NCBI RefSeq assembly: GCF_000026545.1
Contig: NC_011601.1
DNA length: 64,000 nucleotides
Origin: Escherichia coli O127:H6 str. E2348/69
GTDB taxonomy: Bacteria > Pseudomonadota > Gammaproteobacteria > Enterobacterales > Enterobacteriaceae
Strand: one strand, 5' to 3'
Part shown: positions 25,354-25,613 of the stretch, one piece after another
Position numbering within the stretch: position 1 is the first letter of the stretch
Layout: every line of letters begins with the position of its first letter
Notes under the pieces: generated by a model
Seen by the model: the letters and a program-made list of their open reading frames with translations, nothing else
Database searches by the model: none
Told to the model about the DNA's origin: nothing
Translations under genes and position numbers: made by a program

Positions 25354-25369
25354 TAATGGAATCAAGTGA

Positions 25370-25454
25370 TGGTGGTGGGGGAAGGATTCGAACCTTCGAA
25401 GTCGATGACGGCAGATTTACAGTCTGCTCCCTTTGGCCGCTCGGGAACCCCACC
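25370..25454 (-). tRNA. tyrT: tRNA-Tyr (GTA anticodon)
   Basis: Reverse complement reads GGTGGGGTTCCCGAGCGGCCAAAGGGAGCAGACTGTAAATCTGCCGTCATCGACTTCGAAGGTTCGAATCCTTCCCCCACCACCA; only one copy seen in the window. Confidence 0.92.
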
Positions 25455-25613
25455 ACGGGGTAATGCTTTTTACTGGCCTGCTCCCTTATCGGGAAGCGGG
25501 GCGCATCATATCAAATGACGCGCCGCTGTAAAGTGTTACGTTGAGAAAAATGAACTGGTTGCGTAATTTTCATCCGTAACGGATTAAAGGTAACCAGTTA
25601 TTTTTGCTGGCGA

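What the first reader, a model, noticed from the sequence alone, without database searches (positions are those of the whole stretch)
25354..25613. Single tRNA-Tyr whose 3' end lies 16 bp from the lipid cluster
Seen: exactly one tRNA-Tyr (25370-25454, minus strand) is present, and the last cluster gene stops at 25353, 16 bp from the tRNA 3' end. From memory, K-12 carries tandem tyrT-tyrV with tpr downstream in this position. tRNA 3' ends are common island insertion points, but no integrase is associated with this cluster, so the arrangement could reflect an old insertion or a deletion of tyrV/tpr in one lineage.
Basis: partly seen in the sequence, partly recalled or inferred. Interest (0 to 1): 0.35.

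Follow-up and report, generated by a model that had tools for sequence, protein, structure and literature searches.

The report
Collapsed tyrT–tyrV tRNA locus beside old cluster
The lone tyrosine tRNA gene next to the lipid-gene cluster in EPEC strain E2348/69 is what remains of the usual two-gene tyrT–tyrV locus after short repeats recombined and deleted one copy and the RtT repeats; the cluster is an old chromosomal resident, not a tRNA-targeted mobile island, so the arrangement is ordinary.

Summary
One tRNA-Tyr(GUA) lies at 25370-25454 (-), 16 bp from the stop codon of the last cluster gene (25353). The window is E. coli E2348/69.

The "island inserted at a tRNA" reading is not supported. 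There is no integrase, no second copy of the tRNA 3' end in 64 kb, no RtT remnant and no GC anomaly.

In the closest cluster-bearing relatives (Nissle 1917 and others) and in E. albertii, the same 16-bp junction leads into an RtT repeat and then tyrV and tyrT. RtT units begin with the same 19-mer as the tRNA 3' end. E2348/69 lacks exactly 296 bp relative to Nissle: one 178-bp RtT unit plus 118 bp of tyrV and spacer.

Of 673 cluster-bearing E. coli genomes, 389 have a single tRNA, about 185 have tandem tRNAs and about 100 have RtT plus tandem tRNAs. The single state arose at least twice. Tandem tRNA-Tyr is ancestral (58 of 62 enterobacterial species).

The cluster has diverged between E. coli and E. 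albertii about as much as its flanks and survives as a remnant in a third Escherichia lineage, so it is old. The narI–tyrV gap carries varied integrase-free cargo across the family.

Loss of rttR in E2348/69 was already published in 2012. Interest is low.

The parts
17683..18360 (+). narI, last gene of narGHJI. Homology with the K-12-type 'empty' allele ends exactly at its stop codon.
   Evidence: Pfam Nitrate_red_gam, E 4.8e-76; RefSeq annotation; junction comparison
18361..18471 (+). Cluster-allele-specific narI-to-cluster spacer. It contains the 16-bp motif TTATCTAAACCAAACA (18361-18376; 1 copy here, 3 in Z135-1), a hairpin CGGCGG-N7-CTGCCG followed by a T-run (18378-18402), and the cluster leader. 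It replaces the K-12-type narI terminator and REP sequences.
   Evidence: Read directly from the sequence. It is 92% identical to the remnant in the divergent Escherichia locus L013. It has no match in K-12.
18472..25353 (+). Seven-gene lipid-type cluster: KAS III-like, NAD epimerase/SDR, MBL-fold hydrolase, F390-synthetase-related, PAP2, sterol desaturase/fatty acid hydroxylase, fatty acid desaturase. Together with its flanking spacers (18361 to about 25363, roughly 7.0 kb) it stands in place of about 177 bp of K-12 sequence.
   Evidence: Pfam; RefSeq; whole cluster present in 672-673 of 5,426 complete E. coli genomes; GC 0.48-0.55, like the flanks
25354..25369 (.). 16-bp spacer TAATGGAATCAAGTGA between the desaturase stop codon and the 19-mer. 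Its last 6 nt (AAGTGA) match the trailer found before RtT units and tyrV in K-12. The same spacer precedes an RtT unit in Nissle, N96 and E. albertii.
25370..25388 (-). 19-mer TGGTGGTGGGGGAAGGATT (the tRNA 3' end as read on the + strand). The same 19-mer starts every RtT unit, so it is the short direct repeat at which the RtT deletion endpoints fall.
   Evidence: Unique in the window at up to 3 mismatches; 6 copies in the K-12 locus and 3 in Nissle
25370..25454 (-). The single tRNA-Tyr(GUA) gene. It is a tyrT/tyrV fusion survivor: tyrT promoter and leader upstream, tyrV/RtT-type trailer downstream.
   Evidence: ARAGORN; Rfam; sequence identical to K-12 tyrT/tyrV; flank comparison
25455..25532 (-). 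tyrT leader and core promoter (-35 TTTACA at 25532-25527, 16-nt spacer, -10 TATGAT at 25510-25505, GC-rich discriminator). 25455-25554 is 100% identical to K-12.
   Evidence: Promoter scan, 10 of 12 matches with TG extension; 100% identity to K-12 in the first 100-nt window
25533..25613 (-). Region upstream of the tyrT promoter, up to the purU stop codon. About 99% identical to K-12. It corresponds to the known upstream activating (FIS/UP) region of tyrT (from my own knowledge; not tested here).
25614..26456 (-). purU, the conserved right-hand anchor of the locus across Enterobacteriaceae
   Evidence: Pfam Formyl_trans_N + ACT; 80 orthologous loci

Best explanation
The window shows the enterobacterial purU-tyrT-tyrV-(RtT)n-narI locus of E. 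coli E2348/69 in a doubly derived state.

Step 1 (old; inferred from the comparative data): a ~7-kb lipid-type biosynthetic cluster came to occupy the gap between the narI stop codon and the distal end of the RtT repeat array. This happened before E. coli and E. albertii diverged. The resulting layout was narI-cluster-16 bp-RtT-tyrV-(RtT)-tyrT-purU. No site-specific recombinase was involved as far as can be seen. The cluster is a chromosomal presence/absence allele that coexists with an equally old 'empty' allele.

Step 2 (recent; shown as a structural series, mechanism inferred): recombination or replication slippage between direct repeats removed the 178-bp RtT unit and one tRNA copy with its 33-bp spacer (118 bp). 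The repeats are the 19-mer shared by RtT units and the tRNA 3' end, and the two identical 85-bp tRNA genes.

What is left is one tRNA-Tyr gene with the intact tyrT promoter and leader upstream. The tyrV/RtT-type trailer AAGTGA is fused to the 16-bp end of the cluster downstream.

The gene should still be expressed from the strong, growth-rate-regulated tyrT promoter and processed normally. With the RtT region gone, its transcript must now end inside the antisense strand of the desaturase gene. Termination there is probably Rho-dependent (inferred).
For: - **Identity of the locus.** The window is 100% identical to E2348/69. The gene order is narH-narJ-narI-cluster-tRNA-purU-ychJ-rssA.
- **Structural series with one constant junction (GGAATCAAGTGA followed by the 19-mer).** Nissle, ATCC 25922 and N96 have cluster-RtT-tyrV-33 bp-tyrT. 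Z135-1 and UID23 have cluster-tyrV-33 bp-tyrT. E2348/69 and ST131 have the cluster followed by a single tRNA. E2348/69 equals the Nissle layout minus 296 bp (178 + 118), with the endpoints inside repeats.
- **Census.** 673 genomes carry the cluster. 389 have a single tRNA, about 16 of 60 sampled rows are tandem, and about 9 of 60 are RtT plus tandem.
- **Independent origins.** Only 5 genomes combine an E2348/69-type allele (at least 99.7% identical) with a single tRNA. About 96 genomes with alleles at least 99% identical keep RtT plus tandem tRNAs. Z135-1 (tandem) and NR3838 (single) are 100.00% identical over 2.8 kb of the cluster. Non-cluster genomes can also be single-copy (WP9-S17).
- **Tandem is ancestral.** 58 of 62 evaluable enterobacterial species have two copies, 3 have one and 1 has three.
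- **The cluster is old.** E. albertii has the same right junction followed by RtT-tyrV-RtT-tyrT. Cluster DNA is 80-86% identical between E. coli and E. albertii, against 86-91% for the flanking core genes. L013 retains the cluster leader plus KAS III and sterol-desaturase fragments. Homologous clusters sit in the same slot in Superficieibacter, Kosakonia oryzendophytica and Enterobacter sp. BIGb0383.
- **No island hallmarks.** No direct repeat, no RtT remnant, native GC, no integrase.
- **Promoter intact.**
- **Transcript end.** No intrinsic terminator lies just 3' of the tRNA. The first 78 nt of the downstream antisense RNA are 33% C and 14% G.
- **Prior report.** Loss of rttR in E2348/69 is tabulated in PMC3318445.
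Against: - The recombination mechanism and its direction are inferred from comparative structure, not observed.
- tyrT and tyrV are identical in sequence, so the surviving gene carries no internal hybrid signature.
- For the E2348/69 lineage I saw no tandem-without-RtT intermediate, so one-step and two-step deletion cannot be told apart.
- The K-12-type empty allele keeps a narI terminator shared with Citrobacter, Klebsiella and other genera. It is therefore not a simple deletion derivative of the cluster allele. Whether the cluster entered Escherichia once and stayed polymorphic, or was passed between lineages by homologous recombination in the flanks, is unresolved.
- The E. albertii contig ends inside the cluster, so its left junction could not be seen.
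- Rho-dependent termination in the antisense desaturase region is conjecture based on base composition.
Confidence: 0.85

Rival explanations
1. The lipid cluster is a classical tRNA-associated genomic island. It integrated site-specifically at the 3' end of tRNA-Tyr, and its integrase and far-end repeat have since decayed.
For: The cluster has a patchy distribution (12% of complete E. coli genomes). Its right boundary coincides with a sequence identical to a tRNA 3' end, the 19-mer. tRNA 3' ends are common attachment sites (general knowledge).
Against: No integrase or recombinase is present in E. coli, in the larger Superficieibacter version, or in any other cargo found in this slot in 15 other species. 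No second copy of the 19-mer occurs anywhere in 64 kb at up to 3 mismatches. GC content equals that of the flanks. In the nearest relatives and in E. albertii the cluster abuts an RtT unit, not the tRNA. The left boundary is exactly the narI stop codon, with no tRNA-like sequence. Divergence between E. coli and E. albertii matches that of the flanks.
Confidence: 0.05
2. The single tRNA-Tyr is the ancestral state of the cluster-bearing allele, and tandem copies or RtT units in other cluster-bearing strains were gained later by duplication or recombination with empty-allele strains.
For: Single-copy is the majority state among cluster-bearing E. coli genomes (389 of 673). This count is dominated by heavily sampled ST131-type genomes.
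Against: E. albertii and the divergent N96 lineage both have RtT plus two tRNAs behind the same junction. The alleles closest to E2348/69 have RtT plus tandem tRNAs. Two copies is the rule across Enterobacteriaceae (58 of 62 species). Deletion between direct repeats is mechanistically far easier than exact re-creation of RtT-tyrV behind an identical junction.
Confidence: 0.05
3. The single tRNA is an assembly artefact: a 118-bp tandem repeat was collapsed.
For: Short tandem repeats can be collapsed in short-read assemblies.
Against: Three independent complete O127:H6/E2348/69 assemblies are identical at the junction. 389 complete genomes share the state while other genomes resolve two or three repeat copies. 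An analysis of the original E2348/69 genome also scored rttR as absent (PMC3318445).
Confidence: 0.02

Closest known systems
E. coli K-12 tyrT operon (tyrT - RtT - tyrV - three RtT/tpr repeats)
   Same: Same chromosomal position between purU and narI. The mature tRNA sequence is identical, and the promoter/leader is 100% identical over the first 100 nt upstream.
   Different: E2348/69 has one tRNA gene instead of two and no RtT units or tpr at all. The transcript's 3' region is replaced by the antisense strand of a desaturase gene. The classical Rho-dependent terminator region inside the 178-bp repeats (Kupper et al. 1978; Rossi et al. 1981; from my own knowledge) is therefore missing.
Copy-number change of the tandem tRNA-Tyr genes by unequal crossing-over (su3 genetics, Russell et al. 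1970; from my own knowledge)
   Same: Loss of one of two identical, directly repeated 85-bp tRNA genes. The loss recurs independently in several lineages.
   Different: Here the events are natural and fixed in clonal lineages (EPEC O127:H6, ST131-type). They are combined with loss of RtT units through the shorter 19-mer repeat.
tRNA-linked genomic or pathogenicity islands (e.g. at selC, pheV, leuX, asnT)
   Same: Strain-variable gene cargo lying next to a tRNA gene's 3' end.
   Different: No integrase, no flanking direct repeats and no compositional deviation. The cargo predates the E. coli/E. albertii split, and the adjacency to the tRNA is secondary.
Integrase-free chromosomal 'hotspots' or variable slots between conserved core genes (Touchon et al. 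2009 concept; from my own knowledge)
   Same: The narI-tyrV gap ranges from 189 bp to 8.8 kb across Enterobacteriaceae. It carries different cargo in different species: the lipid cluster, an AsnC/EamA gene pair, an ars operon, a Sel1-repeat protein and an enolase/DHH set.
   Different: I did not check whether this particular slot is listed in published hotspot catalogues.

Membership tests
tRNA-Tyr(GUA) gene of the tyrT/tyrV type | Cloverleaf with a long variable arm and a GUA anticodon, detected by tRNA models | tested here: met
   ARAGORN tRNA-Tyr (gta); Rfam RF00005, 53.4 bits against a gathering score of 29
tRNA-Tyr(GUA) gene of the tyrT/tyrV type | Sequence identity to K-12 tyrT/tyrV and an encoded CCA | tested here: met
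   An exact 83-nt pattern match is shared with both K-12 copies. The 3' end ...CCACCA is read directly from the sequence.
tRNA-Tyr(GUA) gene of the tyrT/tyrV type | tyrT promoter and leader upstream | tested here: met
   TTTACA-16-TATGAT at 25532-25505; 100% identity to K-12 over 25455-25554
Canonical tyrT operon architecture (tandem tRNAs plus RtT/tpr repeats) | Two tandem tRNA-Tyr genes | tested here: not met
   Only one tRNA in 64 kb
Canonical tyrT operon architecture (tandem tRNAs plus RtT/tpr repeats) | 178-bp RtT repeat units downstream of or between the tRNAs | tested here: not met
   No RtT (Rfam) match at E<=1 in 15-30 kb; no further copy of the 19-mer
Integrase-mediated tRNA-associated genomic island | Tyrosine or serine recombinase gene at the tRNA-proximal end | tested here: not met
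   All seven cluster proteins have biosynthetic Pfam domains or none. RefSeq annotates no integrase from narH to rssA. None is present in other genera either.
Integrase-mediated tRNA-associated genomic island | Direct repeat of the tRNA 3' end at the distal island boundary | tested here: not met
   The 19-mer is unique in the window at up to 3 mismatches. The left junction is the narI stop codon followed by unrelated sequence.
Integrase-mediated tRNA-associated genomic island | Atypical base composition | tested here: not met
   Cluster GC is 0.48-0.55, against 0.45-0.56 in the flanks
Integrase-mediated tRNA-associated genomic island | Strain-variable presence | tested here: met
   672-673 of 5,426 complete E. 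coli genomes
Repeat-mediated deletion variant (unequal crossover or slippage) | In undeleted relatives, the missing segment is bounded by direct repeats, and the deletion endpoints fall within them | tested here: met
   In Nissle (L007) the 19-mer sits at 2971, 3149 and 3267. E2348/69 lacks exactly the 296 bp between the first and third copies.
Repeat-mediated deletion variant (unequal crossover or slippage) | Recurrence in independent lineages | tested here: met
   Single and tandem states occur on 100%-identical cluster alleles. The single state occurs on two allele classes, in a non-cluster strain and in 3 other species.
Repeat-mediated deletion variant (unequal crossover or slippage) | Direct observation of the recombination event | not testable with these tools
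   This would need experimental evolution or deep long-read population sequencing.

The most novel reading that the evidence does not exclude
Once the RtT buffer is lost, the very strong, growth-rate- and stringent-controlled tyrT promoter fires head-on into the 3' end of the lipid cluster from only about 145 bp away. The RtT/tRNA copy state (RtT plus tandem, tandem, or single) could then act as a heritable, repeat-mediated switch that tunes antisense or collision-based repression of the desaturase and hydroxylase genes according to growth rate. Under this reading the repeated fixation of the collapsed state in successful lineages (ST131-type, EPEC O127:H6) would be selected rather than neutral.
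Probability: 0.06. Interest if true: 0.45.

Novelty: already known. Interest (0 to 1): 0.15.

Why it matters
The main value is a cleaned-up interpretation. The cluster should not be annotated or analysed as a tRNA-integrated mobile island. Whoever studies the lipid cluster should treat it as an old chromosomal allele of the narI–tyrV slot that is shared with E. albertii and has homologues in other enterobacterial genera.

There are three minor practical points:
- E2348/69 and ST131-type strains have one fewer tRNA-Tyr gene at this locus and no RtT/tpr.
- The three structural states could serve as a lineage marker.
- Strains without RtT are natural knock-outs for testing the disputed function of RtT RNA.

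Tried and rejected
- **Direct repeat or att-site search.** I searched for the tRNA 3' 19-mer with up to 3 mismatches and found none.
- **Rfam scan for RtT remnants or other RNAs.** At E<=1 in 15-30 kb only the tRNA matched, plus a chance tmRNA fragment.
- **GC and skew profile.** No anomaly.
- **A large genome class that seemed to separate narI from purU (H15-H29).** This was an artefact of how the search tool joins matched pieces. O157:H7 and P4 have ordinary layouts.
- **Strain P4 (IS4 next to narI).** I examined it as a possible IS-mediated cluster deletion and rejected that. It has the K-12-type empty allele with IS4 inserted in the narI terminator and no cluster remnant.
- **Apparent 91% ychJ protein identity between E. 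coli strains.** This did not hold up. E2348/69 and K-12 are 92-100% identical per 100-nt window across the flank, with no divergent block. I attribute the figure to my crude query translation.
- **Literature searches.** Searches for a prior description of the narI–tyrV cluster and for the classical tyrT papers returned nothing usable. The classical references are cited from my own knowledge.
- **3' trailer fold.** The fold is not significantly more stable than shuffled sequence (z = -1.7). I therefore do not claim a structured terminator.

Full report
**Observation.** The window is 100% identical to the chromosome of EPEC strain E2348/69. ARAGORN finds a single tRNA in the 64 kb: tRNA-Tyr(GTA) at 25370-25454 on the minus strand. 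Rfam's tRNA model confirms it. Its sequence is the same as K-12 tyrT/tyrV. Upstream on the minus strand lies purU (25614-26456). Downstream, 16 bp away, is the stop codon (25353) of the last gene of a seven-gene cluster. The cluster genes are KAS III-like, SDR/epimerase, MBL hydrolase, F390-synthetase-related, PAP2, sterol desaturase/fatty acid hydroxylase and fatty acid desaturase. The cluster begins about 110 bp after narI. K-12 has narI, three RtT units, tyrV, one RtT, tyrT and purU at this position.

**Tests of the island idea.** The 19-nt tRNA 3' end (TGGTGGTGGGGGAAGGATT) occurs nowhere else in the window, even with three mismatches. No RtT match exists at E<=1. Cluster GC (0.48-0.55) is like the flanks. 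No integrase is annotated. Homology with K-12 stops exactly at the narI stop codon on the left and about 6 nt (AAGTGA) before the tRNA 3' end on the right. About 7.0 kb therefore stands in place of about 177 bp.

**What the junction really is.** I searched all complete E. coli genomes with the last 454 bp of the desaturase gene, the 16-bp spacer, the tRNA and the tyrT promoter region (window 24900-25613). This found 673 genomes with the cluster and sorted them into three states behind an invariant junction.
- Single tRNA: 389 genomes, including the ST131 strain JJ1886.
- Two tRNAs 33 bp apart: about 16 of 60 evenly sampled rows (for example Z135-1 and UID23).
- RtT unit, then two tRNAs: about 9 of 60 rows, including Nissle 1917, ATCC 25922 and the divergent N96.

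Every RtT unit begins with the same 19-mer as the tRNA 3' end. In Nissle the cluster's 16-bp tail is therefore followed by the 19-mer of an RtT unit. In E2348/69 it is followed by the 19-mer of the tRNA itself. E2348/69 equals Nissle minus exactly 296 bp, which is one 178-bp RtT unit plus 118 bp of tyrV and its 33-bp leader. The upstream side of the surviving gene is the tyrT leader and promoter, 100% identical to K-12 over 100 nt. The downstream side is the tyrV/RtT-type trailer. The 16-bp proximity to a tRNA is thus secondary. The cluster's original neighbour was the distal RtT repeat.

**Direction and recurrence.** The cluster alleles closest to E2348/69 (99.2% over 2.8 kb, 99.8% over the junction query) carry RtT plus tandem tRNAs. 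Only five genomes combine that allele class with a single tRNA: three O127:H6 and two others at 99.7%. The remaining single-copy genomes carry a different allele class (98.2%), in which tandem and single forms can be 100.00% identical across 2.8 kb (Z135-1 versus NR3838). A strain without the cluster can also be single-copy. Among 62 evaluable species representatives of Enterobacteriaceae, 58 have two tRNA-Tyr genes next to purU, three have one and one has three. The inter-gene spacer is bimodal, either 22-56 bp or about 186-233 bp with an RtT unit. Tandem is therefore ancestral, and collapse to one copy is a recurrent event. Collapse is expected for direct repeats of 85 bp and 19-25 bp, and unequal crossing-over at this locus is classical su3 genetics (from my own knowledge). 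Loss of rttR in E2348/69 and IAI39 was already tabulated by Skippington and Ragan in 2012 (PMC3318445).

**Age and nature of the cluster allele.** E. albertii has the same right junction (GGAATCAAGTAA followed by the 19-mer) and then RtT-tyrV-RtT-tyrT-purU. Cluster DNA is 80-86% identical between the two species, compared with 86-91% for purU, ychJ, rssA, rssB and galU. The cluster has therefore diverged with its flanks and was not recently transferred. A third, equally divergent Escherichia lineage (L013) retains only remnants in front of the tandem tRNAs: the cluster leader (92% identical), about 50 codons of the KAS III gene, a sterol-desaturase fragment and half an RtT unit. This is direct evidence of cluster decay in that lineage. 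Homologous clusters (62-79% protein identity) lie in the same narI-to-tRNA slot in Superficieibacter, Kosakonia oryzendophytica and Enterobacter sp. BIGb0383. There they are extended by glycosyltransferases and a second SDR, again with no integrase.

The K-12-type empty allele carries a narI terminator hairpin that matches at 96-100% in Citrobacter, Pseudocitrobacter and Klebsiella indica, with shorter matches at about 96% in Kluyvera, Kosakonia and Enterobacter. The empty allele is therefore ancient too, and cannot be a deletion derivative of the cluster allele. Either both alleles have coexisted for a long time or they have been exchanged by homologous recombination in the conserved flanks. 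I cannot tell which. More generally, the tRNA-to-narI gap ranges from 189 bp to 8.8 kb across the family. It carries unrelated, integrase-free cargo: an AsnC/EamA gene pair in 11 species, an ars operon, a Sel1-repeat protein, an enolase/DHH set and others. It is a variable chromosomal slot, not an attachment site.

**How the locus probably works now.** The tyrT promoter (TTTACA-16-TATGAT with a GC-rich discriminator), the leader and the mature tRNA are intact, so expression and 5' processing should be as in K-12. The RtT region is absent; in K-12 it holds the Rho-dependent terminator and the RtT/tpr products (from my own knowledge). No intrinsic terminator follows the tRNA. The trailer has only a 6-bp hairpin, and its fold is not significantly more stable than shuffled sequence. 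The first 78 nt of the downstream antisense RNA are C-rich and G-poor (33% C, 14% G), so early Rho-dependent termination inside the antisense desaturase sequence is plausible. This is an inference. The state is fixed in hundreds of genomes, including ST131-type strains, so it is clearly tolerated.

**Verdict.** The tRNA-targeted island mechanism is not supported. Everything seen fits known phenomena (the tyrT operon, repeat-mediated copy-number change, integrase-free variable slots), and the loss of rttR in this strain is already in the literature. Interest is low. The only speculative extension is that head-on transcription from the tyrT promoter modulates the cluster in strains that lack RtT.

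Noticed in passing
window 18361-18376 (compare L004 2262-2309): A 16-bp motif TTATCTAAACCAAACA lies immediately after the narI stop codon. It is present once in E2348/69 and three times in tandem in Z135-1. It is a small copy-number-variable repeat specific to the cluster-bearing allele.
   Followed up: partly
window 18472-22559 (c1-c4); L027, L035, L042, L055: The first four cluster genes (KAS III-like condensing enzyme, SDR, MBL-fold hydrolase, F390-synthetase-like adenylating enzyme) form a conserved core in four other loci from three other genera. From memory, they resemble the OleA/OleD/OleB/OleC (head-to-head condensation, beta-lactone) enzyme logic. In Superficieibacter the cluster is extended by a GT28/EryCIII-like glycosyltransferase, a GT21 (ceramide-glucosyltransferase family) enzyme and a second SDR, which suggests a glycolipid product. 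The function is unknown, and I found no literature on it.
   Followed up: partly
window 22394-23158 versus 22556-23158: The mechanical ORF for the PAP2 gene starts at a TTG at 22394 (254 aa) and overlaps the F390-like gene by 166 nt. RefSeq starts it at 22556 (200 aa). The true start codon is uncertain.
   Followed up: no
L010 (NZ_AP040233.1, 'plasmid pNR3838_1', 94.5 kb): A record annotated as a plasmid carries at least 24.7 kb (the stretch fetched) of otherwise chromosomal sequence, from narG through the cluster, the tRNA-Tyr, purU, hns, adhE and ychE. It is either an F-prime-like capture of chromosomal DNA or an assembly or labelling error. Two of the 673 cluster hits were on 'plasmids'.
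   Followed up: no
L012 10684-10768 (E. albertii): The promoter-proximal tRNA-Tyr of E. albertii differs from the distal copy in the variable arm (GTCTGTGAC versus GTCGATGAC on the + strand). From memory this is the tyrU-type (tRNA-Tyr2) sequence. In that species the tandem copies are therefore not identical.
   Followed up: no
L006 13255-14454 (strain P4); also H5 and H6: IS elements (IS4 family, IS621) recurrently sit between narI and the RtT array in empty-allele strains. In P4 the IS4 element is inserted inside the narI terminator hairpin.
   Followed up: partly
rows H7-H13; L011-L090: RtT copy number varies from 0 to at least 6 among E. coli genomes, and the 19-mer count varies from 0 to 6 among enterobacterial species. 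One Citrobacter (L022) has three tandem tRNA-Tyr genes.
   Followed up: partly
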